Source of the DNA: an uncultured archaeon
GTDB taxonomy: Archaea > Thermoplasmatota > Penumbrarchaeia > JASLWR01
Assembly (NCBI GenBank): GCA_964430885.1
Contig: CAYSHM010000012.1
Location: 29,188 to 93,187 of the forward strand
DNA length: 64,000 nt
Direction of reading: 5' to 3'
The notes under the pieces: model-generated
What the model was told of the DNA's origin: nothing
The model's database searches: none
The model's input: only the letters and a program-made list of their open reading frames with translations
Shown: in pieces, positions 3,145-51,763 of the stretch
Numbering within the stretch: the first letter of the stretch is position 1
How the letters are laid out: each line of letters starts with the position of its first letter
Position numbers and translations under genes: made by a program

Positions 3145-3219
3145 GGGCCCGTAGGGTAGCTTGGTTTATCCTCGTGGCTTTGGGAGCCATGGACTCCGGT
3201 TCAAATCCGGGCGGGCCCA
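3145..3219 (+). tRNA. tRNA-Pro(TGG), intronless, CCA not encoded
   Basis: Acceptor stem GGGCCCG/CGGGCCC, anticodon stem GTGGC/GCCAT around TT-TGG-GA, T-arm CCGG-TTCAAAT-CCGG, discriminator A followed by a T-run. Confidence 0.95.
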
Positions 3220-11197: not shown

Positions 11198-11437
11198 TTA
11201 CTTCACCTAATTACAGCTTCTATTTGGTTCATAGGAACTTATTGGAGATTGTTTTAATAAATATTTATCAGGATTAAGCTATAAATGGTTCATGGGATAA
11301 AAATGTATAATTTGGAACTCACTGAATCCCTACGGAATATGGAAAATTGATTGGACCATATGTTATTCAGATAAGGTAAAATATTGTTAATGCAGATATA
11401 GATTATAACGATTCTTTTGGATTTTGAGGGGCCTATA

Positions 11438-25460: not shown

Positions 25461-25833
25461 CTTACAACCCCTAACTGAAATGCGGTCAATAGCATATATT
25501 AAATATTTTAGAGAAAACACCATTTATGGCTTCTAAACCAATAGAATCGATGATAGAAAAACTTTTCTCCGTAATATATTTAAATGTCCCTTGTGTGTCT
25601 TCTTCATTACCAAACACCTATAAATTACTACTAATTGTATATGATGTATAATGGAACGATACATCTATATATAATGATTTTTCATTAATTGATTAATTGG
25701 CCTACTGTGAATCAAATGATTGGTGGTTATGTAAAAAGGTGAGCTTTAGGTCTAGGGAATTACAGGTAAGATTTATGATCAGATTTGCAGATTTTCAACT
25801 AATTACAGTCTTTACAGTTGAATTGTATGTATA

Positions 25834-31793: not shown

Positions 31794-32582
31794 TCAGACC
31801 ACCTTACCAATTCTATTTTTCAGGCAATTGAAGATGATGACCCCCGAAAGCAGAATGAACAGACAGCTTGCTAGGGGATATATGAAAGTCTTTATTCCCG
31901 GAATGTTGCCGAAAATAAGAACCTCCCTTGAACCGGTTATAATATCCGAAAGCGGATTTATATGCATGAATCTCTCGTATCTATATGGAATTACTTTCAT
32001 GGGATAGAAAATGGGCGTCGCAAAGAATCCTGCGAATATGACCACCTCCCATATATGAGAGATGTCTCTGAAGTATACATAAATGGGTGAAAGGGCCAAG
32101 GCCAATCCCAGTATGAAAATGAACTCCAGCAGAAGGAAATAAGGAAAAATTAGTATGGTGGGAGTGATGCTAATTTCGAAAAAGAAGGATAGAATAATAA
32201 TGAAAATGAAAAAAACACCTACTTCAAGTATTGTTTTGATCAGGGCGGTAAGAACGGCCGAGGCAGGAAGCAGCTCTCTGGGAAAGTAAACTTTTCGGAC
32301 TATATAAGCATTATCTCCTATGGCCCTCATTCCGTGTGTCGTACCGTAGGTGAAGCCTCTCCATAGCAGCACCCCTATGACAAGAAAAACCGAATATGGG
32401 GTATTTACCTCAAATCTTCCAGGGAAAAAATAACTGAAAACAACGGTCAGTACAAGGATAGTAAAGGCGGGATTCAGAACCGACCAAAGAAATCCCAATG
32501 CCGAATTCCTGTAGTGAAGTTTCAGAGTTGTAAGGGCCAGTCTTTTGACCAGTTCCAACTTTTCCGCTGAGAGCTTGTACAT
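31794..32582 (-). CDS. wzm: Polysaccharide ABC exporter permease (Wzm-type)
   Basis: YRNSALGFLWSVLNP, KVYFPRE, FRDISHIW, TPIFYP, NPL. Confidence 0.88.
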   Translation of the reverse strand: MYKLSAEKLELVKRLALTTLKLHYRNSALGFLWSVLNPAFTILVLTVVFSYFFPGRFEVNTPYSVFLVIGVLLWRGFTYGTTHGMRAIGDNAYIVRKVYFPRELLPASAVLTALIKTILEVGVFFIFIIILSFFFEISITPTILIFPYFLLLEFIFILGLALALSPIYVYFRDISHIWEVVIFAGFFATPIFYPMKVIPYRYERFMHINPLSDIITGSREVLIFGNIPGIKTFIYPLASCLFILLSGVIIFNCLKNRIGKVV

Positions 32583-32717
32583 TTGAAGACCTTGAAATAC
32601 CGATAAGTATTATTGAATATGTAAATATTCCGGTATTGGAAAACTCCGCTGGTTTATGTTTCCCTGTTACGGGAGCCAGATAAAATGCGGTTTTTTGATA
32701 TTAAAAGGCCAAGGCAG

Positions 32718-34343
32718 TTACCTGGAAACATGGAAATTATGTTGGAGAGCGGATCTTAGAAATTCCAAGAATATCGGAGCCGGTCTTTGTGGTTTGGATC
32801 GGAATTCAGGATGGAACTGACAGCCAAAGAAGAAGGGGTGGTCCTTGAGCTCCAATATCTCCATTCTCCTGCCATCTGGTGACTTGCCTGAGAAAATGAG
32901 ATTTTCACCCTGTATCCTTGAGATGTAATCCGGATTCACCTCATAGCGGTGCCTGTGTCTTTCCAGAATTTCTTCTGTCCCATAGATATCATAGGCTCTG
33001 CTGTCCTTGTTTATCAATATCCTGTGGGCGCCTCTGCGCATTGTTGCCCCCATTCTATCCTCCTTCAACTGTTCTGGAAGCAGGTCTATAACAGGATGCG
33101 GAGTAGATTGGTCGAACTCAGTTCCATTTGCATCTTCAAGGCCAACTTGGTTCCTGGAATATTCTATTACTGCCATTTCAAATCCCAAACATATTCCCAG
33201 GAATGGAACTTTGTTATTCCTGGCATACTCTACAGCGGCGATTTTCCCCTCTATTCCCCTGATGCCGAAACCCCCTGGGATCAGGATGCCCTGAACGTTT
33301 TTGAGAATATTCCAAGCTTTTTCCCCCCTTTTGTCATCCCGTTCAAGATCTTCAGAACTCACCCATTTCATTATACAGTTAGTGTCAAGTTCGGAGCTTG
33401 AATGGGTCAATGCTTTGAGATGAGATATATAGGAATCCTTGAGCCCCGTATATTTACCGACCAAGGCTATCTTCACCTCTTTTTGCGGCTCGGTGAGCCT
33501 TCTAACATATACTTCCCATTCTGTTAGGTCAGGTGTTTGGGGATTGAGCTTTAATTTCTTCTGAATGATCGTCGATACGTTCTCTTCCTCAAACAGCAGG
33601 GGCACCTGGTGGACCTGTTCCACATCATACACCGAAAAGACCTCTTCTTCCTTGATATTGCAGAAAAGAGATATTTTTCTTTTCACATTGTCCGAAAGGC
33701 GGTGTTTAGACCTGCACATGATGATATCGGGCTGTATTCCCACACGCATGAGTTCCTTCACGGAATGCTGGGTAGGCTTTGTCTTCTGTTCACCAACCAC
33801 ACCCAGTACCGGAACCAATGTCGAATGGATCACTAGAACGTTTTTTTTACCATGCTTGTTTCTCAGTTCCCTTACAGCTTCCAGAAAAGGCATGGATTCG
33901 ATATCGCCTACTGTCCCTCCGAGTTCGATAAGTGTGATCTCGGCTCCGGTATTTCGAGATACCTCTTCGAATCTGCTGATGATCTCATTCATTATGTGCG
34001 GGATGATCTGGACGGTCTTGCCGAGATATTCACCCTTTCTTTCCTTCTGGATAACGGATTGGTACACCTTTCCAGTGGTAATATTGTGTTCAGAGGTCAG
34101 ATTGATGTCCAGAAATCTTTCATAATTCCCTAGGTCTAGGTCAACTTCCGTTCCATCATCAAGTACAAAAACCTCTCCATGCTCAAAGGGATTCATTGTT
34201 CCTGCATCCACATTGAGATATGGATCTACCTTTATAACGGTGATTTTATAACCGCATTCCTTCAGAAGAAGACCAATGGAAGAAGTGATCACGCCCTTGC
34301 CCAATCCGGACAGGACCCCGCCGGCAACTACTATGAACTTCAT
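32718..34343 (-). CDS. pyrG: CTP synthase
   Basis: [59 protein letters not shown]. Confidence 0.98.
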
Positions 34344-34482
34344 AATATCAACGGGAACCTGAAAAAGTGTTTGAACAATATATAACTTCCCACCAAAGTA
34401 GGAGATGGTTGGAATTTAAAGGATAATTCACAGAAAAAGAAATTCTTTTTTGATCTTAGACTTACTGAAAAAAGTAGCTAGA

Positions 34483-35628
34483 TCATCCCCAACCATTGGG
34501 TGAATCAAAGGTTGTTATATCAAAAACACCGCATGAATGAAGCAGATCCCCGCACTTCTGTTTCTCTGTATGGGTAGCCTCGATTTCCATGCCAAGCTCA
34601 ACTTTCTGTGAGGCATCCCTCTGGTATTCCACCCCGAACACGATCTCGAAGCCCAGATCTCTGGACTTATTCTTCTCGGTGAAGTGATCATAGAAATTGA
34701 TGTTTGCCATAACCCCCGCGCTTTTCACATGATCAACCAGCTGTCTTACTTCCTGCCGTAGGTTCTTCTCGTACCCCACGGAACCCTTTCCCCTTCCCTT
34801 CTTGGAATAGAGAGGTATCCTGACATCGAAAGAGGCCGGTTTGAACTGCACCCATTTCATCTGAATGGATATAACATTTCTTTTTTCCGGGGCGAATACG
34901 GAATTGGAAAAGGTTCCGAAATTGAAGAATCCCGTTGCATCAGTATACTTCCATTGGGATTGCATCTTGGATATTTTGGGGGGGGCTACCTCATCCTGTT
35001 TTTCTTCCGATATCAGATATTCCATCTTGTGGGTGACATCAATTCCACCCAGCAGTGCCTTTCCGTCGGGGTTGATCCTCAGAAGCGACCCCTTCCTGAG
35101 CATACCCACAAAAGTGAGTGTCTCCTCAGTATCCATATTTGTTATGGATGGATTCCTAACATTGTCATTGGGCTTTATTATGATGGTAGGCCGTACACTA
35201 CGGACCGATTTGTTGAACTCGAACCAGGTATCGTCTGGCTTAAGTTCCCTTGAAGGTGATTCGATGAACTCAGGGGGATTTTCCTCAATGTCAGGTGGCT
35301 GTCCTATGGTGGCTTCTACAATATTGCTAATGGATTCTACCGTGCCCGCACCGGTAAGGAGCTCTTTCACTGTTAGGAAGAACCTTTTTCTGTAAGGCTC
35401 CCTTCGTTCTCCCGGAAGTCTGGGCACGCCGAATAGGGCCCCCATCCTCTCAAGGGCATCAAGGTCCGCATGATGAAACCATTTTGAACGCATGAGGTCA
35501 GAAAGGTTGTCCTCAAATGTGCTAATCTCCTTACCGAAGCTCCCTATGAACCGATGTATAAGAGAATTATCCCTATAAGCCTGCATGTATAGGGGCAAAC
35601 GATTTATTATGCGTTCGATGTTAAGCAT
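34483..35628 (-). CDS. Baseplate wedge / tail-formation protein (P2 gpI / Mu gp48-like N-terminus)
   Basis: RLP.Y..LIHRFIGSFG..ADLDALERMGALFGVPRLPGE..YRKRF..GAGTVESI..V..VKSAGV, directly downstream of a baseplate J gene. Start placed at ATG 35628 (MLNIER). Confidence 0.7.
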   Translation of the reverse strand: MLNIERIINRLPLYMQAYRDNSLIHRFIGSFGKEISTFEDNLSDLMRSKWFHHADLDALERMGALFGVPRLPGERREPYRKRFFLTVKELLTGAGTVESISNIVEATIGQPPDIEENPPEFIESPSRELKPDDTWFEFNKSVRSVRPTIIIKPNDNVRNPSITNMDTEETLTFVGMLRKGSLLRINPDGKALLGGIDVTHKMEYLISEEKQDEVAPPKISKMQSQWKYTDATGFFNFGTFSNSVFAPEKRNVISIQMKWVQFKPASFDVRIPLYSKKGRGKGSVGYEKNLRQEVRQLVDHVKSAGVMANINFYDHFTEKNKSRDLGFEIVFGVEYQRDASQKVELGMEIEATHTEKQKCGDLLHSCGVFDITTFDSPNGWG

Positions 35629-35704
35629 GTTCTTTCCTCTTTGTCCTATTGATCCTTTATCTTCTTCTATACACTTTTTGAATGGGATTCCCAAACTGCG
35701 CGGT

Positions 35705-37198
35705 TCAATCCACGACTTCCATATTGATATCCCTTAATTTTACCAGCTCATCATCCTTTATGGGCAGGTTATCCCTGGTATAGTCAATGGCTACACCGGA
35801 TGATTCGTAAAGAGCGGAAATTGAGAAATCCAGAAGTTCAGATATTCCTTTAACTCCTTTGATAAGGTTCTTTACTCTCAGATAGTCCACAGGTTCACCA
35901 GTTCTGAGTTTCTCGAAATGAAGAGCTATCTGGGTCTCAATGCCTTCGATTATTCGCTGTTCAGCTATGGTCTTCTTGGTTGGAACCACCCTTAGGTTGA
36001 GATCCACCCTAACATAAGAGACCAATGTGGGTGTAAACTGGGTCTTGACGCTAATGTTCTCCAGTTCCGCTCTTTCATATTCTCCGATCTCCATATCTCT
36101 AGTAGACTCGTCTATCCTTTTTCTGGTATCCTCGACCAAACCCCTTATTTTTTCATCGAAGATCCTGGTGATTATCTTGATATCCTGAAGATTTTCAACA
36201 TTCTCGTTTTTGAAAACAGCAGTGACCATCTTGTTCCTGCTTACGTTATCTCCGCTGCCCAGGGATTCAATATAATCGGCTATGTTGTCTTTAATGGAAT
36301 CCAAAGCTCCGTCCAGTTCTTCCTCGGTCCTTGGAATGTCTGTGAGGTTTAGGAAAATGTCTATGGAAGTTCTGACGAGGGTGGTAGATTTGAGATTGAC
36401 CTGAATTCCAGCAGGCCTTACCCTTTCGATGGCCTTCTGGACATTTTTGTAGGATTCGCTCTCGGGATCCTCCAGGTTGGGTCCGTCAACAATGACATCG
36501 ATCTCTCCTGGCACTCCTTCGGGCATATCCAGGACTGAAACATCTCTGACCCCCGGGATTGCCATGATGGAATTTTTAATCGAATCCACAGTGGTCTTTC
36601 CTGCTGAAAGCACTACTGCTTTGGCTCTAGCCCTCAGTTCCTCGTCGCTTTCTCTCTCAGTTCCTATCGTGGTCGGTTTCTTGTTAATGACCTTGTCGAT
36701 CCCGATTATGGGACTTTCCAGTTTGGTTATTGTCTCGAAATCCGCCATACCATCCTTTCCGGGATCAAGGGCCTTGATGGGAACTTCGATCTCGTTCTCT
36801 CCCCTGGTCAGAGTCAATGTTATTGAGGTCTCGAAGATCTTCATGTTGGATGCCTTGGTTTCCTGGGTGGAGACAAGTGTGCCCCTAGGTATTGTAACCT
36901 CTTTATTGGCATTCCTACGGGAAAATGTTACAGAGCCGGTAGCGTATTGAGCAGATTTCCGAGCTACTCCGAGGATAGCCACAACCATATCCAGAGCCGC
37001 ACCGTTTGCAGAGTCCACGAAACCTGCATTATATGCGGCCTGCATTTGCTCGTACATGGTGGCTATCTCCCTTCCAACAGCTTCAACCATGGTCCTGGCT
37101 ACGGAGCCGACATTTGTATCAGAAACAGGTGAATTATCATGCATATCCTTTATTATGGAATCCACTACCTGTCTGTAGGATTTTCTTTTGAATACCAA
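35705..37198 (-). CDS. Baseplate J-like protein (P2 gpJ / Mu gp47 / T4 gp6 family)
   Basis: SDTNVGSVARTMVEA, FVDSANGAALD..LGVARK..ATGSVTF, IPRGT.VST, ESDEELRARA, IPGVRDV, VRPAGI. GGAGTGA SD right after the upstream stop favours TTG 37198. Confidence 0.9.
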   Translation of the reverse strand: MVFKRKSYRQVVDSIIKDMHDNSPVSDTNVGSVARTMVEAVGREIATMYEQMQAAYNAGFVDSANGAALDMVVAILGVARKSAQYATGSVTFSRRNANKEVTIPRGTLVSTQETKASNMKIFETSITLTLTRGENEIEVPIKALDPGKDGMADFETITKLESPIIGIDKVINKKPTTIGTERESDEELRARAKAVVLSAGKTTVDSIKNSIMAIPGVRDVSVLDMPEGVPGEIDVIVDGPNLEDPESESYKNVQKAIERVRPAGIQVNLKSTTLVRTSIDIFLNLTDIPRTEEELDGALDSIKDNIADYIESLGSGDNVSRNKMVTAVFKNENVENLQDIKIITRIFDEKIRGLVEDTRKRIDESTRDMEIGEYERAELENISVKTQFTPTLVSYVRVDLNLRVVPTKKTIAEQRIIEGIETQIALHFEKLRTGEPVDYLRVKNLIKGVKGISELLDFSISALYESSGVAIDYTRDNLPIKDDELVKLRDINMEVVD

Positions 37199-37211
37199 TT
37201 GGATCACTCCT

Positions 37212-37658
37212 TCATTCTTCAAGATAAAGCGGATATTTGATCTTTAATTTCTCTTTTGTCTTGGCAAGTTCCACCTGCAGTGAGATAAATACCAAACTGG
37301 GATCTTTAGGGGATGCGTATGCAATTATTTTCTCAATGTTCCTAATACGGGGTTCTTTTTCCAAACAGTCCCGTACCAGGGTTTCGATTATTCTGTGGGT
37401 GTCAGGGATATTGGGTTCTCCGATGATCTCCTCAAGAAGTGACCCGTAATTTGGATGACCCAAGGGCGCCAATTCACCCTGCCGGGTTATCAATCGGTGC
37501 CTGATGGCCTGAACCATGAGATCCCTATCTTCAACAGTATCAAGGTCTCCTTTACCGTCAATGACGGCATCGGTAGTAATTTCCCCATTCTCGTTCTCCT
37601 CGGACATTATCCTTATGTCCCGTCCGTAGGAATCCACTTTTTTTGCCATTATGACCAT
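37212..37658 (-). CDS. GPW/gp25-family baseplate wedge (sheath-initiator) protein
   Basis: GDLDTV..QAIRHRLITRQGEL..HPNYGSLL..IGEP..L..EPRI, the typical gp25/gpW/Afp9 pattern. Confidence 0.88.
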   Translation of the reverse strand: MVIMAKKVDSYGRDIRIMSEENENGEITTDAVIDGKGDLDTVEDRDLMVQAIRHRLITRQGELAPLGHPNYGSLLEEIIGEPNIPDTHRIIETLVRDCLEKEPRIRNIEKIIAYASPKDPSLVFISLQVELAKTKEKLKIKYPLYLEE

Positions 37659-38040
37659 CCGAATCTACGTATGCATACACTAAGTGATGAACTATATTTT
37701 TATTGCAATCAAATAGCCTTAGAATATCAGATAGGCACCAATGAGAAGTTTATTAATTTAAAGTTTCTGATATTAATATATTTATCATACTCAATGTAGG
37801 GTTTTTTATATGATATCATTTCAAAATTCCAAAAGGAGTATTTTATCCCTTGAAGAATTACATAATGGAAATCTTACCCCCAATTTCATTTAAAACCCTA
37901 TCTCTACTTTCCTCCTTTCTCTTAACTAGAATGAAGCCTTGTCGTTTCATCTAATTAATATCAATAAAAACCTTCAATTCCTGCACAAAAATATAACGGT
38001 GTGATATTTGTTCGAAATGGTATAAATATATTGATCAACC

Positions 38041-38243
38041 ATATACCTATTGTAATATGCTATACCAATAGATTTCAACTAATAGAACACAATGAATAAT
38101 GTTCATTGACGGTGTATTCGAAGAAAAATTGATGTAATTATCACGAATTGAGAATGGCGGCATTGTTGAATTACAGCGTGTTTGAAATTCGGGAGTTTCT
38201 GAAAACAGGTCAAAATCATTATATTCTATGATATACCTATTGT
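38041..38243. repeat. 13-bp direct repeat ATATACCTATTGT (38041-38053 and 38231-38243) in the divergent intergenic region
   Basis: Two exact copies 190 bp apart. Confidence 0.8.
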
Positions 38244-38326
38244 TTTAATGGATTTATTGAAATCATTTTGACGATGTTGGTGTTTGATAATCGATAGATA
38301 ATTAATTACCAAAACGAGGGATTGAT

Positions 38327-41300
38327 TTGAGATATGAAAAATATCTATTGACAGCAGTTTTGCTTATTTTGTTGGCCACTCCGTTTCTTGGAACCGTAGC
38401 GGGATCATACCGTATCATTGAGGATCAAAACCACCATACTTGGGATTCATTACTTACCGGTAACCCGAAAGGAAATGGGGTTAGAGAATTATTTTTCTCC
38501 CTGGAGCTTACCCAGCCAAATATTGAAGTGGATCCTATCGAGGGTACCCTTTCATTGGGTGGCGAAGGATGGTTTGAGAGAGCAGATCCGGGAGATTTTA
38601 ATCTTCCAGTAAAGCCAGTTAACGTTCTTATTCCATTCGGATCAGAGATCGATGATATTGAGATCCAATGGGGCTCCTCCGAGATGATATCATCTGGTTT
38701 GGAAGTCGATAAGGTTCCTATGTTCGATATAAAATCCACCATACTACCGGAGCATAAGGGGGAACTTGATGAAATCCAGGAACAGTCCCTTTCATCGATT
38801 AGGGATATAGAACCCGGTATAGAGGATTCAGGCGTCAAGTTCTTCAGAGGTTTTTCCTACAATGTGCTTTCAGTTTCACCATTCCAATATGAACTATCGG
38901 GTGATAGTCTGTATTTTTACAGTTCTGCAGAGGTTACTTTGAAACTTGGAGATGAACCTCTCAACGATAGATCCGAGCTGTTGAGGATTGGAAGTCCAGA
39001 CGGATATCTTTTTGATATTGATGAACTCCTGGAGCGAGAATTTGTCCCCACCTATCCCCTTGTAAGTGAAATATTGGGTGAATACGAAGACCTAGCACTT
39101 ATTAGCGACAGAAGCATTCCCCAGCCAGGGGAAGAGTTTTCCATGGTTGTGATCACTTCATCGGGCTTTTATGATGATTTCATACCATTCGCCGAATGGA
39201 AGATTAACAAGGGTATTGCTACCAAGATAGTAAATGTATCCGATATCACCTCGGATGCTGATTACAACGGAGTTGACACCCAGGAGGAAATACATAATTT
39301 CATAAAAGATGCCTATAATAATTGGAATACCGAGTATGTGATTCTCGGCGGGGATGTTAGTATTGTTCCCCATAGAGGTTTCTATGTTTCCATGACAACC
39401 GGCAGTGGGCCGGTAGCGGATCACATTCCTGCAGACCTCTATTATGCATGTCTTGATGATCCCTTTAACAATGACGGGGACAGCCGTTGGGGGGAGGAGA
39501 ACGATGGCGCCGGCGGCAACGATATAGATGTAGTTGCCGAGGTATATGTGGGAAGAGTTTCTGCTGATACTGCAGGTCAGGTTGCGGCTTTCATAGGTAA
39601 AACACTTGATTACGAGAGGGACCCTAGACCCAATTATGTTCAGGAGGTACTTCTGAACGCGGCTTGGCTGGATCAGTTTACTGATGGTGCCCTTTCCTCA
39701 GATGCAATATTCCAGGATGCTTTCCCTGATGGATTCACTGCGACTAGGCTTTATTCTACATTGAACAACGCTTCCAAGACTAATTTCAATAACAAGATGA
39801 ACTCAGGCATGGGAATGGTCTACAATGTAGGCCATGCCAATCATCAGGGAATATCTATCGATAATCATACCTCTCATTCACGTACCGATGCCGACGGTCT
39901 TTCAAGCGACCACAAGTTCTCGGTCTTCTATACCATGGGCTGTTTGGCTAACCGGTTTGATGTGTCCGATACATATGCTGAACATATGATGTACAATCCC
40001 GATGGAGGCAGTGTGGTCTTCATCGGTAATACTAGGTACGGTCTATACAGTCCGGGCAATATGCTAAGTTCACCGTCCCATGTTTTCGCTATAAATTTTT
40101 TTGATCAGCTTTTCCAGGAGGGCCATAGGGATGCCGGCAGGGCCAACCAGCTAGGCAAGGAAGAGCTCACATGGCTTGTCGGAAATGAATACTATCGATG
40201 GATCTATTTCACAATTAATTATATGGGCGATCCCAGCATGCAGATATGGTTTAATGAACCCCAGGAAATAGATGTTGAACATCCGCCTGCAATATATGCC
40301 GGGTCCCCTGCTCCGGTAGAGGTCAATGTGAACACTCTCACCAGAGCGCCAGTTGAAGGAGCAAATGTGGCTATTGTGAACTGGCCCGATGCTTTCTCGA
40401 ATGCCACCACCGATGCTACAGGGGTAGCTGAGCTATTCCCCAACCCGAACGATGTTGGAACCGCAAACATTACAGTTACTGGGCCGGATATCAAACCATA
40501 TTATTCAACCATGCTGATCACCGATGATATGGTGGAACCGATAATTACCGTTAACGTGAGTTCTTATGGACCGTACTATGATGATCCCGGTGCGGTCATG
40601 GAAGTTGATTTCAGCAACGGAGGTTCAGGCTCCGATCTTTGGTTCGCTCAGTACAAGGACGGACTGACCGGCCGATGGCAGGACATATTCAATGGAACCG
40701 CCGGATCATCATATATAGTGGACTGGGCATTGGATTGGACGGAGATCCAGGATGGCGTTCGCACAATTTTCATTAGATGTGTCGATGAAGCTTGGAACAT
40801 TGCTCTGGACTCTGTCACATTTGAGAAGGACTATCAACCTCCTTTTATTCAGCTTGACAAGGATGAAATGGGCTGGTTTGGTCAGGATCCTCAGGAAGCG
40901 ATAGGGGTACATGTGGAGAGTACACGGGCAGGTACGCAGCTGAATAGGGCTTTCTATACCATAAATCAGGGTGATGAAGTAGAAATTTTCAATGAGGATA
41001 CTGTGGCCTATGACGGCAGTGTACTGGTCAACTGGACAGATCTGAAGGACGGGATCAATTATCTGAACTTCACTGCACTGGACCAGTTGGATGTCAGGGA
41101 TAACAGTTCGGCACAGGTGATCTATAAGAAGGACAGTCTGGTACCGGAGATAATTATCAATAATGTCACGTACGGATATTATACCTCTGATCCCGGTTCG
41201 GTTATTGATGTTGATTTCTTTGATCAGGATCTTTCCCTGCTTCACAATGCTACTTTCAGGATAGAGAACGGTTCATGGCAGGAGATATTTTCAGGGGGAA

Positions 41301-43747
41301 GGATCAATCATACCCTTGATTGGGGTGCGAATTTCACCGAATTCGACGAAGGGCCGAACTACATGGATATCTGCGCCTGGGATGGTGCGGGTAATCAGCT
41401 GATATTGGAGGATGCAGTTGTATTCTGCAAGGATACCCGTAAACCTGACTTCCTATCTGACAGCTATCTTTTCGGTTGGTTCAGTCAGGATCCCGGTCCG
41501 GTCATTGATATCGATTTCAGTTCCGGCGGAGGATCCCCATTGGTAATGGGTGAATACCGTTTGGGCGGAGGTGATTGGGAGACATTGTTCAATGACACAA
41601 GGGATAACTACACACAGGACTGGGCTGTTGATTTCTCATCTCTTCATGAAGGACTGAATTCATTGGATGTCCGTGTTGTCGATAGTGTGAACAATATTGA
41701 GGTGTCTCAAGATCTTTATGAGATAGGGATTGATTTCAATCCGCCAGAGATCTGGATGGATAAACAGGTATATAATTATACTGAGACCGAGGAGATAATA
41801 TTCGGAGGTCAGTATTTCCAGACAGTGTTTTCCACTGGCGGCAGCGGATCGGACCTCACCTACGCACAATACAGAGTAGGTGATATGGGAGAATGGATCA
41901 ATATTTCAGATTCCCTTGACGACAATGAGACCCATGCCTGGAGGTTGAATCGGTCTCTACTTTCCCAGGGATTGAATGTAGTACACCTAAGGGTGTTCGA
42001 TCATTTATTCCAGGATGATGATAATATTTCCATTCTGATATTCTATGATTCCCGACCGCCCATAATAGAGGTATCCTCCAATGAACTAGGATGGTACAAC
42101 CAGGACCCTGGGATCATGCTGCATCTTGATGTCAGAGAGAATGGTACTGGGTCAAATCTGACCTCCATTGAATATAATGTTGATGACGATGATGAATGGT
42201 ATATTGTATTCCAGGATGTTTTCAACGGTACAACTGTTGGAACTGAAGACCGTTACTCTGAGGAAATCCAGTTTGATTTCAATGTAATAAATGAGGGTTA
42301 TAACAAAGTAACGATACGGGCTTGGGATCATTCCGGGAAGTCCGCTGAAACAGAAGTAACGGTCAAAAAGGATACGGTTTCTCCAGTATCGGTTCTGCTT
42401 GCATCACCGGGTAACTCTCAGGATACTTCATTCACGACCATCTATCTGGCCTGGGGTGAGGTGGACAGGGACCTTGACGGGAGCAGGATAATTGGTTACG
42501 AATACGAGGTCTCCTATACGGATGGTTTTGCAGACCCATTTGCTTCAGGGAGTGTTGAGGAACTTACCAGCGAAGTAACCATAATCAAATCCGGTAAATA
42601 TTATTGGCGGGTCCGGGCTTTTGATGAGGCTGGGAACATAGGCGAATGGAGCAGTATTTGGTCATTCTACCGTAATAGTCCGCCAAGAGCCAGAATGAAT
42701 ATTTCCTCAAGAGGGGACATATATCATCCATTCCTGTTCGATGCATCGGCATCCGAGGACGAGGATGGCTCTATAGTAAATTATACTTGGACATTGGATG
42801 ACAAGGTTCAGATATTTGGTGAGACGATTGAATATCTGTTCACAGTTAATGGTACATATGATATTCGTTTGACAGTAAGGGACGATCTCGGCAAAGTGGA
42901 TATCATAGAGGAGCGTGTGGATATAGGGGGCTCCAAATTCAAACCGGGAGATCATGTCAATGTCGGAGGTCAGGAGAGAGAAATTATTGAGGTAGTCTGG
43001 GATGAGGAGCAGGATGAATGGACCTATGTTCTGGATGATGGTTCAGAGATTCCACAGGATGATCTTGCCCCTTTCCGGAAAGAGAGTACAACCGATCCCC
43101 TGGAGAAGGACGTTTGGGGTGTGCCCTGGCAGTATCTCGCTTTTGCAGTGGGAGGGGTTTTGATTATTTTCCTGGTGCTCGGAATAATAATACTCAAGAA
43201 ACGGAGCTATGCACCAATAGTTTGCCCCAAGTGCGGTAAAAGGGTCAGGAGCCAAGCTGAGAACTGTCCCTCATGCGGGGAGGTGCTCTACAAGATGCCC
43301 TACATCACCAGTAATTGTAAGAAATGCAGCTTCCTGGTCTATGATTGGGAGGATAAATGTCCCAAATGCGATCTTCCTATTAGCAAAGGGAAGGAGGATG
43401 AAGAGGAGAAGGGGTATGGATCGAAGGATAAGGTCTCTTTCATGGGAGGTGACTCTTACAAAGAGAAATATGACTCTTTCTCTGAGAGAGAAAGCACTCC
43501 GAAATCCGAAGATGAGATTGCCTCGTTTGAGGTCAGGAAATCCGATGATAAAAGGGATGACATGGACCAATTTGATGATTTGGAGGTTGATCCAGAATCC
43601 GAGTCCGAGGAACCAGAATTGAAGGATATTTCCGGTTTTGATGAAGATGATCAGTGGGATAACGATTGGGATGATGAATGGGGTGATGATGAGGAAAAAG
43701 CAGACGACCAATGGGCCGATAATGACGACGATGATTGGATAGTATAA
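38327..43747 (+). CDS. Membrane-anchored C25 (gingipain-like) cysteine peptidase: propeptide, Ig/Fn3/PKD domains, TM, cytoplasmic double zinc ribbon, Trp-acidic tail
   Basis: Propeptide PG..NLPV..VLIP; FAEWKINKG, IHNFIKDAY, YVILGGD, ADLYY, VYVGR; catalytic VGHAN and MGCLA; NYMGDPS; four CxxC pairs after the TM. Confidence 0.88.
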   Translation: MRYEKYLLTAVLLILLATPFLGTVAGSYRIIEDQNHHTWDSLLTGNPKGNGVRELFFSLELTQPNIEVDPIEGTLSLGGEGWFERADPGDFNLPVKPVNVLIPFGSEIDDIEIQWGSSEMISSGLEVDKVPMFDIKSTILPEHKGELDEIQEQSLSSIRDIEPGIEDSGVKFFRGFSYNVLSVSPFQYELSGDSLYFYSSAEVTLKLGDEPLNDRSELLRIGSPDGYLFDIDELLEREFVPTYPLVSEILGEYEDLALISDRSIPQPGEEFSMVVITSSGFYDDFIPFAEWKINKGIATKIVNVSDITSDADYNGVDTQEEIHNFIKDAYNNWNTEYVILGGDVSIVPHRGFYVSMTTGSGPVADHIPADLYYACLDDPFNNDGDSRWGEENDGAGGNDIDVVAEVYVGRVSADTAGQVAAFIGKTLDYERDPRPNYVQEVLLNAAWLDQFTDGALSSDAIFQDAFPDGFTATRLYSTLNNASKTNFNNKMNSGMGMVYNVGHANHQGISIDNHTSHSRTDADGLSSDHKFSVFYTMGCLANRFDVSDTYAEHMMYNPDGGSVVFIGNTRYGLYSPGNMLSSPSHVFAINFFDQLFQEGHRDAGRANQLGKEELTWLVGNEYYRWIYFTINYMGDPSMQIWFNEPQEIDVEHPPAIYAGSPAPVEVNVNTLTRAPVEGANVAIVNWPDAFSNATTDATGVAELFPNPNDVGTANITVTGPDIKPYYSTMLITDDMVEPIITVNVSSYGPYYDDPGAVMEVDFSNGGSGSDLWFAQYKDGLTGRWQDIFNGTAGSSYIVDWALDWTEIQDGVRTIFIRCVDEAWNIALDSVTFEKDYQPPFIQLDKDEMGWFGQDPQEAIGVHVESTRAGTQLNRAFYTINQGDEVEIFNEDTVAYDGSVLVNWTDLKDGINYLNFTALDQLDVRDNSSAQVIYKKDSLVPEIIINNVTYGYYTSDPGSVIDVDFFDQDLSLLHNATFRIENGSWQEIFSGGRINHTLDWGANFTEFDEGPNYMDICAWDGAGNQLILEDAVVFCKDTRKPDFLSDSYLFGWFSQDPGPVIDIDFSSGGGSPLVMGEYRLGGGDWETLFNDTRDNYTQDWAVDFSSLHEGLNSLDVRVVDSVNNIEVSQDLYEIGIDFNPPEIWMDKQVYNYTETEEIIFGGQYFQTVFSTGGSGSDLTYAQYRVGDMGEWINISDSLDDNETHAWRLNRSLLSQGLNVVHLRVFDHLFQDDDNISILIFYDSRPPIIEVSSNELGWYNQDPGIMLHLDVRENGTGSNLTSIEYNVDDDDEWYIVFQDVFNGTTVGTEDRYSEEIQFDFNVINEGYNKVTIRAWDHSGKSAETEVTVKKDTVSPVSVLLASPGNSQDTSFTTIYLAWGEVDRDLDGSRIIGYEYEVSYTDGFADPFASGSVEELTSEVTIIKSGKYYWRVRAFDEAGNIGEWSSIWSFYRNSPPRARMNISSRGDIYHPFLFDASASEDEDGSIVNYTWTLDDKVQIFGETIEYLFTVNGTYDIRLTVRDDLGKVDIIEERVDIGGSKFKPGDHVNVGGQEREIIEVVWDEEQDEWTYVLDDGSEIPQDDLAPFRKESTTDPLEKDVWGVPWQYLAFAVGGVLIIFLVLGIIILKKRSYAPIVCPKCGKRVRSQAENCPSCGEVLYKMPYITSNCKKCSFLVYDWEDKCPKCDLPISKGKEDEEEKGYGSKDKVSFMGGDSYKEKYDSFSERESTPKSEDEIASFEVRKSDDKRDDMDQFDDLEVDPESESEEPELKDISGFDEDDQWDNDWDDEWGDDEEKADDQWADNDDDDWIV

Positions 43748-43966: not shown

Positions 43967-46900
43967 ATGAGAATTAGATATTCCACAACTGCAATGGCTT
44001 CAGCATTGTTATTATGTCTGATAGTTTCTCCATTGAGCAATATTGTTTCAGGCATCCTGGTAAATGAAGAAGAATCAGATCATTCAAATAATGATTTTTT
44101 AAATGCATTTGAGGATGAAACTCAATCCATTCAGGATTTACCAGGTATCGATGAAAACCGCGATATCTCCAATTCCATCAATCAGATAAAATATCCTGAA
44201 GGAACTCCCAATTCGCTCTTTCAGGATTACTTGAATGATATGAAAGCATTTGATACTGAATTGATAGGTCCAGAGTCCTACATTAATGACGGATTACTGT
44301 ATGATTCTTCCTATCAGGACCGCACTATTGTTGTTCACGAAAATGATTCAAGCTATTTTGATGAACTGCTCTATACCGCAGCGGTACCTGCTGCCATCCA
44401 TTGGGAAGGTGGTTCAAGACATGATAGTCTGCTTCTATATGATTCGGATGAGAGGGATACAGGGAACCTCCATGGTGATTGGGCAGGTTATTTGGAATCC
44501 CGGGGCGGATTGAAACATCTGGATTTTTTGGGGGGAGTGAACGGAACAAGAAGAGCTGAGATCAGCAGTTATTACGGGTCGCCGGAGGATATGGAAGTTG
44601 TTACAGTTTCAGGGGATATCTACAATGCCTCAGCGGAAATTGCCAAATATTATTGGAAAGAGGAGAGGTTCATCAGACCTGATACGGCAGTCATCGCATA
44701 TTCACCCGATCCTCAAGGCGGTAAGCAAGTGTTTCAGATTAGAACAAATACAAGCAATACCAAGGGAAACTATGACGTTGAGGTAAATGCATCCCAGGTG
44801 GCCTGGCTTGAAACCGAATTGCACTGGGAGGATCAGAATGACAACAGCGTTTATGATATTGAGATGACCGATCCATATGCCACTCACCATGCGAAATATA
44901 ATACATCATCTAGCTGGTACAAGGAGAATCCCAGTAATAATGTCCTTAACTTTCATGAAGGGAGCAGGGAAACGGGTCTTTCACCACTTTATTCCTTCAT
45001 GCCTATAGATCCATTCGGCCCCTCTAGTAATGCGTCGTTCTCTGATAGTGTAGGGCCAAATGACGGAAGCGGGGTTCCCGAACCTCCATTCGCAGATGTT
45101 ACAACTCATACCATAGGGCCAGTAAAAAAAGGAATGATTGTAGAATGCAGTCTTTCCTGGTCTGACAGCAGTGAGCTGGAATTATATGTCCATCCCAATG
45201 GTACAACTCCTGCCGAATACGAGTTTGAATACTGGTGGGGCCAACCCGTAGTTCTAAAATTCATATCTACAATCAATGGCTTCTGGGATATTTCAGTTCA
45301 TACATATACTGGAAACGGAGATTCTTACGGCTTGGAGGTACATTGGAGTTTACCATCAGAACTGGAGTGGCCCATATACCAATGCGAGAACAGCGACGAC
45401 AGCTACACCATAAACACAAAGAAAACCATGGTGCTTGGTGATGATATTGCGGAATCCGCAGCCAACGGAGCAGTATTGGCATCTCTTTTGGATTCACCTC
45501 TGCTTTTCACAGCGGGGGTACAGCCAGAACAGGCAGTGATGAATGTTCTGGAGGATCTGGGAATTGATAACCTCATTATTGTTGACCCCTTTGGAAGAAT
45601 AGATTCCTCCGCTTGGGAGAACCGGGGCCTTGCGGTAGAGCATTTGGATTCCGATTATTCTGTGTTCAATATGATTTCAGACATTGGATACCGTAAGACT
45701 TGGGAGAGAGACGTGGTGGTGCCAGCTCTCGGTGGTCCCTGGTTTACTTCCGCAGCCCTTGAAGGAGCAGCCCATGCTGCACCCGTTCCATTCCCCAATG
45801 ATCCTTTGGCACTCTCAGCTACAAATCTAAGTACCCGGGTCTGGTGGAATATGCTGGAGTGGGCCGATACCTTGGGTGCCTATACAGGGAGCAGTGCCAG
45901 TTCTGAGGATCACCCTCCGAAGAGGAGCAGCATGGAATCAATAGCTGATTACTTCTATGACTGGCTTGGAAATTTTAATCCTGCCTATAACCCCTCTTGC
46001 AACGATAATGATTCAGATGGGATACCCGATTCAGGTTTGATGTGGAACTATTCCAAGGATATTGACGTAGTCATTGTATCGCCAATGAATGGAATTAAGA
46101 TGTGTTTCGACAGGGCCATTATAGGCAAAGGATCCGTAGGACGAATACCCGAATACGATCCATCGATATCCACCGCTATAGCCGCTAGAGCAGTTCTGTA
46201 CTGGAAATTGGCTTTTTCAAATAATACCAATCCCGGGGATATGAACGCGGTAAACGAGACCTCGAACTTCTGGGATAAAGCCGGTTGGACATTCGTTGCA
46301 TATACCCATGATGATGATGATCCAAACGATGATGATCTTGGGGATGATACTGATGATGATTATTCCGAGGATGATGACGGAGGAGCAGTTCATCTCTCCT
46401 ACCGCATGAGCGAGGAACTGCCCCAGTATGCATCGGATTACGGTGTTTCAGCTAACTGTTACAACACCTCTTATCCCCAGGTCACGGATATGCTGGAGGA
46501 CGGTTTAGGATTTTGGTGTCATGCAGATCACGGAGGATATAACAAGCATTTGGAAACCGGGGCAGGAGTTATCGGCCTTTCCGGTAAGGCCCAGAATCCT
46601 TGGAGAGACTGGGATGACGGTGCAAACGTGGACGATCCTGACGGGTCCGGGAACACTATAGGTTTAGCCAATCCCTCCGGTAATGATCATATATCCGGTA
46701 ATGATATATTCTATGGAATTCACGATCTTCCATCCACATTGATCTATCTTCAGGATTGTCAGGTGGGAGGAACCCATATGCCCGCCAACCTTCTGAGGCT
46801 AGGGTCATCCGGTGTTGTAGGCGACCATTATTCAATGTACATCGATCCCTCACCAGTATATAACGATCGATTGGTTAAGGGATTGTTCTCAGGTATGGAT

Positions 46901-51735: not shown

Positions 51736-51763
51736 CAAGTATTTGCATAAGGAGGAATGAAGG

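What the first reader, a model, noticed from the sequence alone, without database searches (positions are those of the whole stretch)
34483..37658. Stand-alone baseplate-wedge operon (gp25 - gpJ - gpI-like) with no tail, spike, capsid or mobility genes
Seen: three intact, closely spaced co-oriented genes, with the gpJ SD directly after the gp25 stop. They are bounded by pyrG on one side and a 668-bp AT-rich gap on the other. No sheath, tube, VgrG/PAAR, LysM, tape-measure, AAA ATPase, terminase or integrase gene was recognised in the 64 kb, and there is no sign of decay. Established: gp25/gp6/gp7 equivalents (TssE/F/G; Afp9/11/12; Mu gp46/47/48) form the universal wedge of contractile injection systems and normally lie next to sheath and tube genes. 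Inference: either (a) one module of a domesticated contractile injection system whose genes are dispersed around the chromosome of a Thermoplasmatota archaeon, or (b) a wedge-only ring repurposed as a scaffold, or as a decoy that poisons assembly of contractile-tailed viruses. This is the best candidate in the window for an undescribed system.
Basis: partly seen in the sequence, partly recalled or inferred. Interest (0 to 1): 0.85.

Follow-up and report, generated by a model that had tools for sequence, protein, structure and literature searches.

The report
Scattered phage-tail injection machine, archaeal
The three genes are the baseplate-wedge module of a phage-tail-like injection machine whose sheath, tube, hub, spike, chaperone and fibre genes lie at six other places in the same archaeal genome, a scattered layout shared by related archaea and invisible to searches that look for gene clusters.

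Summary
Window 34483-37658 (minus strand) carries three intact, tightly packed genes: gp25-like sheath initiator, Baseplate_J (gp6/gpJ-like) and a gpI/gp7-like wedge protein. They lie between pyrG and a 668-bp, 29% GC gap, and nothing else in the 64 kb was recognised as tail-related.

The triad is not a wedge-only device. The same 3.13-Mb genome encodes the partners at six other loci, each among housekeeping genes:
- a lone sheath gene (C6);
- tube, a ~1100-aa protein and a tube-initiator-like protein (C1);
- a gp27-like hub and a tape-measure-like protein (C1, 103 kb from the tube);
- a tail-chaperone pair with an overlapping +1-frame ORF (C32);
- gpV spike and PAAR (C18);
- a fibre-like trio (C3).

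Every component tested occurs only in the same 9 of 37 genomes of this Thermoplasmatota class, always on separate contigs. Sheath and gpJ trees are congruent. dN/dS is 0.04-0.23 where computable. No capsid or terminase was found with the two families tried. A tail terminator or cap was not found, and one relative (G001) has lost gpJ and gpI.

Verdict: reading (a), a domesticated dispersed contractile injection system, is supported, and (b) is not. This is a new variant of a known kind.

The parts
37212..37658 (-). gp25-like sheath initiator / wedge protein, 148 aa; first gene of the operon
   Evidence: phrog_975 3.5e-19. PF10934 and PF04965 are below their cut-offs. Profile A6 against PDB: phi812 ORF61 5.8e-17, diffocin sheath initiator CD1370 1.1e-6, Pvc9, Afp9. 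phmmer 1.5e-20 to the gp25 gene of the compact Nitrososphaeria cluster.
37201..37211 (-). Shine-Dalgarno-like AGGAGTGATCC directly after the gp25 stop (TGA 37214-37212), 2 nt before the likely gpJ start TTG 37198
   Evidence: Sequence read. The start is placed by the ortholog alignment. Complementarity to the 16S 3' end is recalled, not tested.
35705..37198 (-). Baseplate_J (gp6 / P2 gpJ / Mu gp47-like) wedge protein, 497 aa from TTG 37198 (longest ORF starts at 37222, 505 aa)
   Evidence: PF04865 9.8e-33, 113.9 bits against a cut-off of 21.1; phrog_6 4.1e-57. Profile A1 against PDB: phi812 ORF62 1e-26, diffocin TRI-2 9.3e-18.
34483..35628 (-). gpI / gp7-like wedge partner, 381 aa from ATG 35628 (longest ORF starts at TTG 35694, 403 aa)
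   Evidence: phrog_1160 1.3e-12 and phrog_5857 6.4e-5 on residues 21-149. No Pfam family. phmmer 2e-39 to the gene after gpJ in the compact Nitrososphaeria cluster. Profile A2 against PDB is weak: 9ndy wedge protein 1 at 1.3e-3, phi812 TmpF/ORF63 at 2.1e-3. The fold search was inconclusive.
37659..38326 (.). 668-bp AT-rich (29.2% GC) intergenic region between the divergent gp25 operon and the C25-peptidase gene; probably holds both promoters. A BRE/TATA-like GAAACTTTAAATTAATA lies at 37751-37767 (-), 93 nt upstream of the gp25 ATG
   Evidence: GC; motif position. Its reading as a promoter is inference. Similar AAACTTTAA(A/T)T elements lie upstream of the tube and hub genes, but they look like the general archaeal promoter consensus.

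Best explanation
The triad is the wedge module of a complete or nearly complete phage-tail-derived contractile injection machine. The machine is of the P2/Mu/R-tailocin grade, and its genes have been scattered over at least seven chromosomal loci in a lineage of Thermoplasmatota archaea.

Inferred mechanism, from established knowledge of simple baseplates (Mu, P2, R-pyocin, Afp/PVC; recalled, not tested here):
1. gpJ, gpI and gp25 form wedges.
2. Six wedges close around a hub made of the gp27-like protein, the gpV spike and PAAR.
3. A tape-measure protein, the chaperone pair and a tube-initiator-like protein start the tube.
4. The 133-aa tube protein polymerises.
5. The sheath polymerises from gp25.
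6. Fibre-like proteins on the wedge periphery sense a target, and baseplate opening triggers sheath contraction that drives the tube and spike out.

What is shown: the parts exist, are intact, co-occur, are under purifying selection and are unlinked. What is inferred: that they assemble into one particle, how it is regulated, and whether it acts outside the cell (fibres argue for an eCIS/tailocin mode) or from a membrane anchor.
For: Partners in the same genome:
- Sheath, C6:21001-22428: PF04984 48.6 bits against a cut-off of 31.4, phrog_279 3.1e-29.
- Tube, C1:175850-176251: phmmer 1.4e-16 to the tube of a compact Nitrososphaeria cluster. The AF2 model has pLDDT 72.9. The leading Foldseek PDB hits are tube proteins: phi812, diffocin, Hcp1, HFTV1, PVC; 17 hits at E<=0.001.
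- A 1124-aa protein and a 426-aa tube-initiator-position protein directly after the tube.
- Hub, C1:67197-68888: phmmer 1.8e-10; profile A4 hits the Streptomyces CIS VgrG-like chain 9gtr_q at 3.7e-10.
- A 1176-aa protein after the hub that matches tape-measure PHROGs (phrog_4200, 1.6e-29).
- Chaperone pair, C32:16800-17505, with an overlapping +1-frame ORF.
- Spike and PAAR, C18:55763-57662: PF04717 28.4 bits against 23.8; PF05488 66.9 bits against 27.
- Fibre-like trio, C3:65473-67312.

Unlinked but chromosomal: each locus lies beside housekeeping genes, namely pyrG, ribosomal L13/S9, asparaginase, a GPN ATPase, a radical SAM enzyme, a cytidylyltransferase and UbiA. Two loci are 103 kb apart on one contig.

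Co-occurrence across the 37 genomes of the class:
- gpJ in 9 of 37.
- Sheath in the same nine (9 of 41 relatives).
- Spike in 8 of those nine.
- Hub in 7 of 37.
- Fibre-like protein in 7 of 37.
- Tube in 4 of 37 with a single short query.
- No component in any of the other 28 genomes.
In a phylum sample, gpJ was found in 10 of 401 genomes. In every carrier the parts lie on different contigs. In G003 these are C1, C10, C52, C36, C14 and C8.

Inheritance and selection: sheath and gpJ trees each recover the clade (support 95/99 and 91/95) and family f1 (100/99), with Nitrososphaeria nearest in the (midpoint-drawn) trees. dN/dS was computable for 9 of 30 CIS-gene pairs and ranges 0.043-0.232; the C25-peptidase neighbour gives 0.106.

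No head genes with the families tried: PF05065 capsid in 0 of 5 carrier genomes. Terminase_6N in 0 of 4 (G000, G002, G003, G005), with 1 hit in G014.
Against: - No tail terminator or cap was found. PF14065 gave 0 of 5 genomes, but its control rang nowhere, so this is uninformative. The 164-aa gene upstream of the guide cluster has no homolog here.
- PF06841 and PF04985 tube models do not reach significance. Tube identity rests on homology to an unannotated cluster plus a medium-confidence fold.
- gpI, the chaperone, the 426-aa protein and the 1124-aa protein are assigned largely by position and weak profile hits.
- G001, of the same genus as G003, has gpJ truncated after about 46 residues and gpI gone. 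Tube and hub were not found there either, so the system can decay.
- In G014 gpI is on a different contig from gp25-gpJ. In G006 gpI is shortened and a 360-aa gene is inserted.
- The spike contig C18 has 50.6% GC against 43.5% for the genome.
- All genomes are metagenome bins at 62-97% completeness.
- There are no expression data and no shared regulatory motif beyond a generic promoter consensus.
Confidence: 0.75

Rival explanations
1. Eroding relic: the scattered genes are leftovers of an ancient prophage tail or CIS cluster that has been broken up by rearrangement and no longer makes a particle. Individual genes may be kept for other uses or simply not yet lost.
For: G001 has lost gpJ, gpI, tube and hub yet keeps sheath, gp25, spike and the fibre-like gene. 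No terminator or cap was found. The triad itself is split in G014 and altered in G006. The system was not found in 28 of 37 genomes of the class.
Against: All core parts are intact in G000, G002 and G003 and were found together. Orthologs have no internal stops, except one TAA at the end of G006 gpI. dN/dS is 0.04-0.23 where computable. The genes have been retained across five families while synonymous sites became saturated (23 of 33 pairs). A relic would not be expected to keep a tape-measure chaperone with its two-frame architecture.
Confidence: 0.12
2. Wedge-only device: the triad works alone as a ring scaffold, or as a decoy that poisons assembly of contractile-tailed viruses.
For: The triad is a self-contained operon with its own promoter region and no tail genes within 64 kb.
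Against: Sheath, tube, hub and spike exist in the same genome and in the same set of relatives. Of the nine genomes with a gpJ match, none lacks the sheath.
Confidence: 0.03
3. Binning or assembly artefact: the modules come from different organisms, or from a virus whose contigs were binned with the archaeon, so the scattering is not real.
For: All genomes are metagenome bins. C18 (spike/PAAR) has 50.6% GC against 43.5% for the genome. G005 carries at least four full tube copies on separate short contigs, which may reflect strain mixtures.
Against: Every module lies on a contig with archaeal housekeeping neighbours. Tube and hub modules are 103 kb apart on one 251-kb contig. The same pattern recurs in eight other bins. 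Module trees agree with each other and with the family labels. Two separate run assemblies reproduce the triad's flanks. No gpJ relative was found in IMG/VR contigs.
Confidence: 0.04
4. Headed particle: the tail genes belong to a domesticated whole virion (a gene-transfer-agent-like element) or a highly rearranged provirus whose capsid, portal and terminase genes are also scattered and too divergent to have been seen.
For: Only two head and packaging families were searched. Archaeal virus head proteins are often missed by Pfam. Multi-locus encoding is known for the Rhodobacter gene transfer agent (recalled).
Against: PF05065 was found in 0 of 5 genomes, and Terminase_6N in 0 of 4 of G000, G002, G003 and G005. 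The closest compact relative (Nitrososphaeria loci L074 and L075) is tail-only, with no recognisable head genes in its 21-kb loci. The genes just upstream of its sheath match cellular genes.
Confidence: 0.05

Closest known systems
Compact CIS/tailocin-like clusters in Nitrososphaeria MAGs (loci L074, L075) and in Acidobacteriota, Caldilineae, Accumulibacter and Ilumatobacteraceae MAGs (L069-L073)
   Same: These are the closest sequence relatives found. Against the Nitrososphaeria clusters L074/L075: sheath 2e-111, gpJ 8e-52, gpI 2e-39, spike 1.5e-33, gp25 1.5e-20, tube 1e-16. gpJ is 31-39% identical to L069-L075. The Nitrososphaeria clusters hold the same parts in P2/Mu order: sheath, tube, chaperone, tape measure, initiator, hub, spike, gp25, J, I, fibres.
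   Different: There all genes lie in one run of about 15 kb. Here they lie in at least seven loci.
R-type tailocins and P2/Mu-like or phi812-like myovirus tails (pyocin R2, diffocin, phage phi812 baseplate)
   Same: The best solved-structure matches of the three triad profiles are the three consecutive phi812 baseplate proteins: ORF61 at 5.8e-17, ORF62 at 1e-26 and ORF63/TmpF at 2.1e-3. Diffocin sheath initiator and TRI-2 also match. The tube fold is nearest to phi812 and diffocin tubes. No head genes were found.
   Different: Tailocins are single clusters with a lysis cassette, often strain-variable and horizontally moved (recalled). This system is scattered, archaeal and apparently vertically inherited. 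No lysis genes or terminator were identified.
Extracellular contractile injection systems (Afp, PVC, AlgoCIS, Streptomyces CIS, Anabaena tCIS)
   Same: It is a headless contractile machine with spike, PAAR and fibre-like proteins. The gp25 profile also hits Cis9-type proteins of AlgoCIS, Streptomyces CIS, PVC, tCIS and Afp9. The hub profile hits the Streptomyces CIS VgrG-like protein.
   Different: The gpJ profile gave no hit to Afp11/Cis11-type chains at E<=0.01. No Pvc16/Afp16 cap was found, though that test was uninformative. The Afp15 ATPase was not tested. Survey definitions require many core genes in proximity (passages of PMC8213781 read), which this system fails.
Haloarchaeal T6SS-like CIS (Halogeometricum borinquense; PMC11566945, passages read)
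   Same: It is an archaeal contractile injection system with experimentally shown sheaths and antagonism, the only characterised archaeal precedent I found.
   Different: That system is a 14-gene cluster in two subclusters on a plasmid. It is related to Bacillota CIS and spread by horizontal transfer. The present one lies on chromosomal-looking contigs beside housekeeping genes, is scattered, is closest to Nitrososphaeria clusters and tracks the host families.
Rhodobacter capsulatus gene transfer agent (recalled from memory; no call)
   Same: It is a domesticated phage-derived structure whose genes are spread over several chromosomal loci and controlled by host regulators.
   Different: The GTA has a head and packages DNA, has a non-contractile tail, and still keeps a roughly 15-kb main structural cluster.

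Membership tests
Baseplate_J / gp6-like wedge protein (PF04865) | Pfam model match above the curated cut-off | tested here: met
   113.9 bits against a cut-off of 21.1, covering 249 of 255 profile positions. The whole-genome search finds this as the only copy.
gp25 / sheath-initiator family (PF04965, PF10934) | Pfam model match above the curated cut-off | tested here: not met
   23.5 bits against 27.2, and 27.2 bits against 32.9.
gp25 / sheath-initiator family (PF04965, PF10934) | Homology to structurally defined sheath initiators, and position directly upstream of gpJ | tested here: met
   Profile A6: phi812 ORF61 5.8e-17, diffocin CD1370 1.1e-6, AlgoCIS, Streptomyces CIS, Pvc9, All3318, Afp9 0.025. 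phrog_975 3.5e-19. The gene ends 13 nt before the gpJ start.
gpI / gp7 / Mu gp48-like wedge partner | Sequence or fold homology to a solved gp7-class wedge protein | tested here: inconclusive
   No Pfam family. phrog_1160 1.3e-12 on the N-terminal 130 residues. Profile against PDB reaches only 1.3e-3 to 2.1e-3. AF2 pLDDT is 66, and Foldseek matches only a beta-sandwich domain (monocin tip, 4e-6).
gpI / gp7 / Mu gp48-like wedge partner | Conserved position immediately after gpJ in contractile-tail clusters | tested here: met
   It is homologous (2e-39) to the gene after gpJ in L074 and L075, and (1e-14 to 4e-16) to the genes after gpJ in L070 and L073.
Contractile injection system (any class) | Sheath, tube, hub/spike and wedge all encoded by one genome | tested here: met
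Contractile injection system (any class) | Tail terminator or cap | tested here: inconclusive
   PF14065 found in 0 of 5 genomes, but the control rang in 0 of 14 genomes. No homolog of guide ORF L074:869-1363. Other terminator families were not searched.
eCIS operon as defined in genome surveys | Many core genes in close proximity in one locus (at least ten in PMC8213781, passages read) | tested here: not met
   The largest run of recognised structural genes here is three (the triad, the tube module and the fibre trio); the spike locus holds five co-oriented genes, of which only spike and PAAR are recognised parts. The loci lie on six contigs.
eCIS operon as defined in genome surveys | Afp15-type AAA ATPase and Afp16-type cap | not tested
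   The ATPase was not searched, because Cdc48-type AAA proteins are universal in archaea (recalled). For the cap, see the terminator row.
Type VI secretion system | TssJLM membrane complex, ClpV recycling ATPase, TssBC two-gene sheath | not tested
   No search was made. The sheath is a single 475-aa phage-type protein.
Prophage / myovirus | Capsid, terminase or integrase linked to the tail genes | tested here: not met
   None was recognised among the 25 window ORFs scanned. PF05065 in 0 of 5 genomes; PF03237 absent from G000. No gpJ relative in IMG/VR. Isolated phages reach at most about 28% identity over at most 69% of gpJ among the 15 listed hits; all 603 matching records fall in the under-60% identity band.

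The most novel reading that the evidence does not exclude
A phage-tail-derived injection machine has become an ordinary, vertically inherited cellular trait in a Thermoplasmatota class. Its roughly 16 genes are fully de-clustered into at least seven unlinked transcription units among housekeeping genes, and have been so since before five families diverged. Assembly would then depend on a trans-acting regulon rather than on operon structure. This would be the first fully scattered contractile injection system. It would also imply that cluster-based surveys systematically undercount such machines, especially in archaea.
Probability: 0.5. Interest if true: 0.75.

Novelty: new variant of a known kind. 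Interest (0 to 1): 0.62.

Why it matters
Contractile injection systems, tailocins and T6SS are found and classified by their gene clusters. The surveys I could read define a locus by many core genes in proximity and report only one archaeal phylum (PMC8213781 and PMC12210884, passages read). A machine whose parts are unlinked shows that clustering is not a requirement, and that such systems are missed by design.

It adds a Thermoplasmatota lineage to the short list of archaeal CIS carriers. The system looks inherited rather than recently transferred, unlike the haloarchaeal case. It raises a testable question: how are seven loci co-regulated and their products assembled in the right ratios?

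The partial linkages in sister families give a stepwise record of how a phage-derived cluster falls apart after domestication. These are sheath-chaperone-tube together in G005, and initiator next to hub in G006 and G014.

Tried and rejected
- Complex prediction of gpJ (9-505) with gpI (23-340): no verdict, score 0.06 against a mark of 0.32. It is evidence neither way.
- Fold of gpI: pLDDT 66. Foldseek gave only one hit at E<=0.001 (monocin tip, beta-sandwich domain), so it could not confirm a gp7-type fold.
- Sheath by phmmer against PDB sequences: 0 hits. The initiator-like profile A5 against PDB: 0 hits.
- Pfam tube models PF06841 and PF04985: only chance-level hits, in an acidic low-complexity surface protein and in roughly 570-aa proteins.
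- PF14065 cap: 0 of 5 genomes, but the control rang nowhere.
- Shared regulatory motif: sheath and tube promoters share TTGGAAAC, and orthologous sheath promoters keep GGAAA(A)C just upstream of a TATA-like box. By my own rough estimate, not a call, about two shared 8-mers are expected by chance among six 100-nt regions. The element sits where a BRE would, so I do not claim a regulon signal.
- A 190-aa minus-strand ORF between tube and tape measure in L074 first looked like a conserved gene. Its S/P/R-rich translation showed it to be the antisense shadow of the plus-strand chaperone gene.
- RNA evidence: no RNA holder is listed for window 33500-39000.
- ESM Atlas for the 279-aa protein between spike and PAAR: only unnamed clusters.
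- Earlier findings of this scan: nothing returned.
- Literature: four full-text searches found no description of a scattered CIS or of a CIS in Thermoplasmatota. The only mention was a sheath homolog of a 'Thermoplasmata archaeon' listed in a table of PMC9230969.

Full report
**1. The observation**

The minus strand of window 34483-37658 holds three intact co-oriented ORFs.

- The first (37658..37212, 148 aa) matches the two gp25/sheath-initiator Pfam models only below their cut-offs: PF10934 at 27.2 bits against 32.9, and PF04965 at 23.5 against 27.2. It matches PHROG baseplate family phrog_975 at 3.5e-19. A profile of nine orthologs hits solved sheath initiators: phi812 ORF61 at 5.8e-17, diffocin CD1370 at 1.1e-6, plus AlgoCIS, Streptomyces CIS, Pvc9, the Anabaena tCIS protein and Afp9.
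- The second is a clear Baseplate_J protein (PF04865, 113.9 bits against 21.1; phrog_6 at 4.1e-57).
- The third has no Pfam family. Its N-terminal 130 residues match baseplate PHROGs (phrog_1160 at 1.3e-12).

Ortholog alignments place the gpJ start at TTG 37198 and the gpI start at ATG 35628.

pyrG is confirmed on one side (CTP_synth_N, 1.9e-123). On the other side is a 668-bp gap of 29.2% GC.

The rest of the window reads as ordinary archaeal chromosome: NAD-dependent DNA ligase, primase large subunit, histone deacetylase, glutamine cyclotransferase, an ABC-2 transporter, TruA, deoxyhypusine synthase, PKD-rich surface proteins and a 1806-aa C25 peptidase. Rfam finds one tRNA, at 3145-3219.

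Two public run assemblies, possibly the source data, cover 32000-40000 in single 62.8-kb contigs with no difference or joint.

**2. The partners exist elsewhere in the same genome**

The window is C12:29188-93187 of a 3.13-Mb bin of 44 contigs, 91.6% complete. Pfam family searches of the whole genome found one Baseplate_J gene, which is this one. They also found one tail-sheath gene on C6, and a gpV-type spike and a PAAR protein on C18.

Pfam tube and cap models gave nothing usable. I therefore looked for a compact relative to use as a guide. A gpJ alignment (A1) found 12 loci in species-representative genomes. Five are the close Thermoplasmata relatives. Seven are more distant (31-39% identity) and come from Nitrososphaeria, Acidobacteriota, Caldilineae, Accumulibacter and Ilumatobacteraceae MAGs.

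The two Nitrososphaeria loci carry one run of genes in P2/Mu order: sheath, tube, chaperone, a 582-aa protein in the tape-measure position, a 177-aa protein, hub, spike, gp25, gpJ, gpI and fibre-region genes.

I ran phmmer with all 98 ORFs of six such loci against all 6849 ORFs of 70 aa or more in the own genome. It recovered:

| Part | Place in G000 | E-value |
|---|---|---|
| Sheath | C6:21001-22428 | 2e-111 |
| Triad: gp25, gpJ, gpI | C12 (the window) | 1.5e-20, 8e-52, 2e-39 |
| Spike | C18:55763-56440 | 1.5e-33 |
| PAAR | C18:57306-57662 | 1.7e-10 |
| Tube, 133 aa | C1:175850-176251 | 1e-16 |
| Hub, 563 aa | C1:67197-68888 | 1.8e-10 |
| 426-aa protein | C1:179824-181104 | 2.6e-3, rising to 1e-38 on iteration |
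| Two genes of a three-gene operon | C3:65473-67312 | 1.9e-10 and 7e-6 |

Iterated search with the real plus-strand chaperone gene found its homolog at C32:16800-17312. An overlapping ORF lies in the +1 frame at 17287-17505. The same offset recurs in four other loci, and G005 has an in-frame fusion.

**3. Checks on the new assignments**

- Tube: the AF2 model has pLDDT 72.9. Its Foldseek matches are led by tail-tube and Hcp proteins of phi812, diffocin, Flavobacterium Hcp1, HFTV1, phiCD508, PVC and others.
- Hub: a nine-sequence profile hits the gp27-like part of the Streptomyces CIS VgrG-type protein at 3.7e-10.
- The 1176-aa protein after the hub matches many tape-measure PHROGs (phrog_4200 at 1.6e-29). 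The 1124-aa protein after the tube matches one weakly, at 2.3e-6.
- The 426-aa protein has only sub-threshold hits to Mu DNA_circ_N and a hub PHROG, and no PDB hit. I call it tube-initiator-like from its position.
- The C3 trio: phrog_5417 at 2.3e-24, a tail-fibre PHROG at 9e-6, a weak Gp53-like fibre C-terminus, and Ig-like domains. Its homologs follow gpI in the guide clusters.
- gpI remains the weakest member of the triad. The profile against PDB gives only 1.3e-3 (a phage 'wedge protein 1') and 2.1e-3 (phi812 TmpF/ORF63). The fold search was uninformative.
- Even so, the best solved matches of the three triad profiles are the three consecutive phi812 baseplate proteins ORF61, ORF62 and ORF63.

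**4. The scattering is real and conserved**

Each locus is flanked by housekeeping genes:
- tube beside ribosomal proteins L13 and S9;
- hub beside asparaginase and a GPN-type ATPase;
- sheath beside a radical-SAM gene;
- fibre trio beside a cytidylyltransferase;
- chaperone beside a UbiA prenyltransferase.

The tube and hub modules are 103 kb apart on one 251-kb contig.

Among the 37 species genomes of the class, gpJ is found in 9. Seven are full-length orthologs at 49-66% identity. One is a fragment, in G001. One is a distant 23% match, in G007. The other components follow the same set:
- the sheath is found in the same nine genomes at 57-75% identity (41 genomes searched);
- the spike in eight of the nine;
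- the hub in seven;
- the fibre-like protein in seven;
- the tube in four with a single 133-aa query.

None of the six queries hit any of the other 28 genomes, including 0 of 24 in the largest family. In an even sample of the phylum, gpJ is found in 10 of 401 genomes.

In every carrier the parts lie on different contigs. For G003 these are C1, C10, C52, C36, C14 and C8, several of them over 100 kb. The sheath gene has no conserved neighbours even within the family.

Some linkages survive in sister families:
- sheath followed by the chaperone in G005, G006, G010, G014 and G007;
- sheath, chaperone and tube within 7 kb in G005;
- initiator-like gene next to the hub in G006 and G014.

In family f1 the arrangement is tube-X-initiator and hub-tape-measure-like. 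This looks like stepwise break-up of an ancestral cluster.

**5. Inheritance and selection**

Maximum-likelihood trees were built for the sheath (14 rows) and gpJ (11 rows). From the sheath tree I left out the extra G005 copies, the G005:C260 paralog, L071 and L073. From the gpJ tree I left out the G001 fragment, G007, G312 and L070-L072.

Both trees recover the Thermoplasmata clade (95/99 and 91/95) and family f1 (100/99), and both group the two f8 genomes, with Nitrososphaeria nearest in trees rooted only at the midpoint. The Acidobacteriota and Caldilineae rows are on very long branches.

Of 33 pairwise dN/dS estimates, 23 had saturated dS. The nine computable CIS-gene pairs give 0.043-0.232. 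The neighbouring C25 peptidase gives 0.106.

Not every lineage keeps the system. In G001 gpJ stops after about 46 residues and unrelated genes follow, with no Ns in the sequence. gpI, tube and hub were not found there. In G014 gpI lies on a different contig from gp25-gpJ. In G006 gpI is shortened, with one TAA, and a 360-aa gene is inserted.

**6. What it is not**

- No capsid (PF05065, 0 of 5 carriers).
- No Terminase_6N in G000, G002, G003 or G005, with one hit in G014.
- No gpJ relative in IMG/VR.
- Only distant matches in isolated phages: 603 records, all in the under-60% identity band, about 28% at most among the 15 listed, none covering 80% of the query.
- The wedge-only reading fails because the partners co-occur with the triad.
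- A binning artefact is unlikely for the reasons in section 4, although the spike contig has a higher GC (50.6% against 43.5%).

**7. Mechanism and gaps**

From established knowledge of simple baseplates (recalled), the triad should form six wedges around the hub-spike-PAAR complex. gp25 would seed the sheath and the fibres would trigger contraction.

The presence of fibre-like genes and the lack of any recognised membrane anchor lean towards an extracellular, tailocin- or eCIS-like mode. This is inference.

The open gaps are the tail terminator or cap, any lysis or release function, cargo, and regulation. The promoter comparison showed only a BRE/TATA-like consensus. The one complex prediction gave no verdict. 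No RNA run is listed.

**8. Comparison with the literature**

The surveys and the archaeal study that I could read in passages treat CIS as gene clusters (PMC8213781, PMC12210884, PMC11566945). Four full-text searches found no scattered CIS and no Thermoplasmatota CIS. The only mention was a Thermoplasmata sheath homolog listed in PMC9230969. Supplements are closed and could hold relevant lists.

I therefore rate this a new variant of a known kind: a familiar machine with an unfamiliar genomic organisation and host lineage.

Noticed in passing
G000:C32:16800-17505 (locus L106 6800-7505); also L049 11050-11740, L031 2118-2808, L050 5918-6527, L075 4650-5232: The tail-assembly-chaperone-like gene is followed by an overlapping ORF in the +1 frame in the four Thermoplasmata loci, and by a non-overlapping +1-frame ORF in the Nitrososphaeria locus L075. 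G005 has the two fused in frame (L051 7689-8486). This recalls the programmed frameshift of phage tail chaperones (gpG/GT, gpE/E+E'), here kept in a chromosomal archaeal gene.
   Followed up: partly
L026 (G001:C73) 8362-8514: In a congener of G003, gpJ is cut after about 46 residues and gpI is gone, replaced by unrelated genes on the other strand. gp25, sheath, spike and the fibre-like gene remain intact in that genome.
   Followed up: partly
G005: C59, C44, C656, C699, C901, C263 (loci L051, L082-L087): G005 has at least four full-length tube copies on different contigs, and tandem sheath genes (one split into two pieces, one whole) on C59. This is either amplification of the sheath-tube module or a strain mixture in the bin.
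   Followed up: no
L078 9540-10313 (G000:C3:66539-67312): The 257-aa fibre-module protein shares a segment with the sheath protein. phrog_279 matches at 7e-4 on residues 102-202, and the guide sheath hits it at 3e-5. This suggests a domain exchanged between the sheath surface and the fibre module.
   Followed up: no
window 38327-43747 (+): A 1806-aa protein with a C25 (gingipain-type) peptidase domain, a PKD domain, zinc ribbons and an acidic tail is transcribed divergently from the triad. The same neighbour is kept in G003 and G001 (44-46% identity), so this is the only conserved synteny of the triad.
   Followed up: partly
window 11417-13408 (+): An NAD-dependent (bacterial-type LigA) DNA ligase with BRCT and HhH domains lies in an archaeal chromosome, next to typical archaeal replication genes such as the primase large subunit at 26240-27388.
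   Followed up: no
window 43967-49936 (+), 20985-25523 (-), 50131-53242 (+), 7354-8862 (-): Large ORFs of 1989, 1512, 534, 457 and 502 aa have no Pfam family at E<=0.001. They have no match to the guide CIS clusters either.
   Followed up: no
L009 13938-17893 (G000:C18:55237-59192): The spike locus reads zinc-ribbon protein, spike, 279-aa unknown, PAAR, TPR protein. The 279-aa protein is kept only in G002. In G001 and G003 the spike is instead a 406-aa protein with a different C-terminal part. That variable region is a candidate spike-tip or cargo region.
   Followed up: partly
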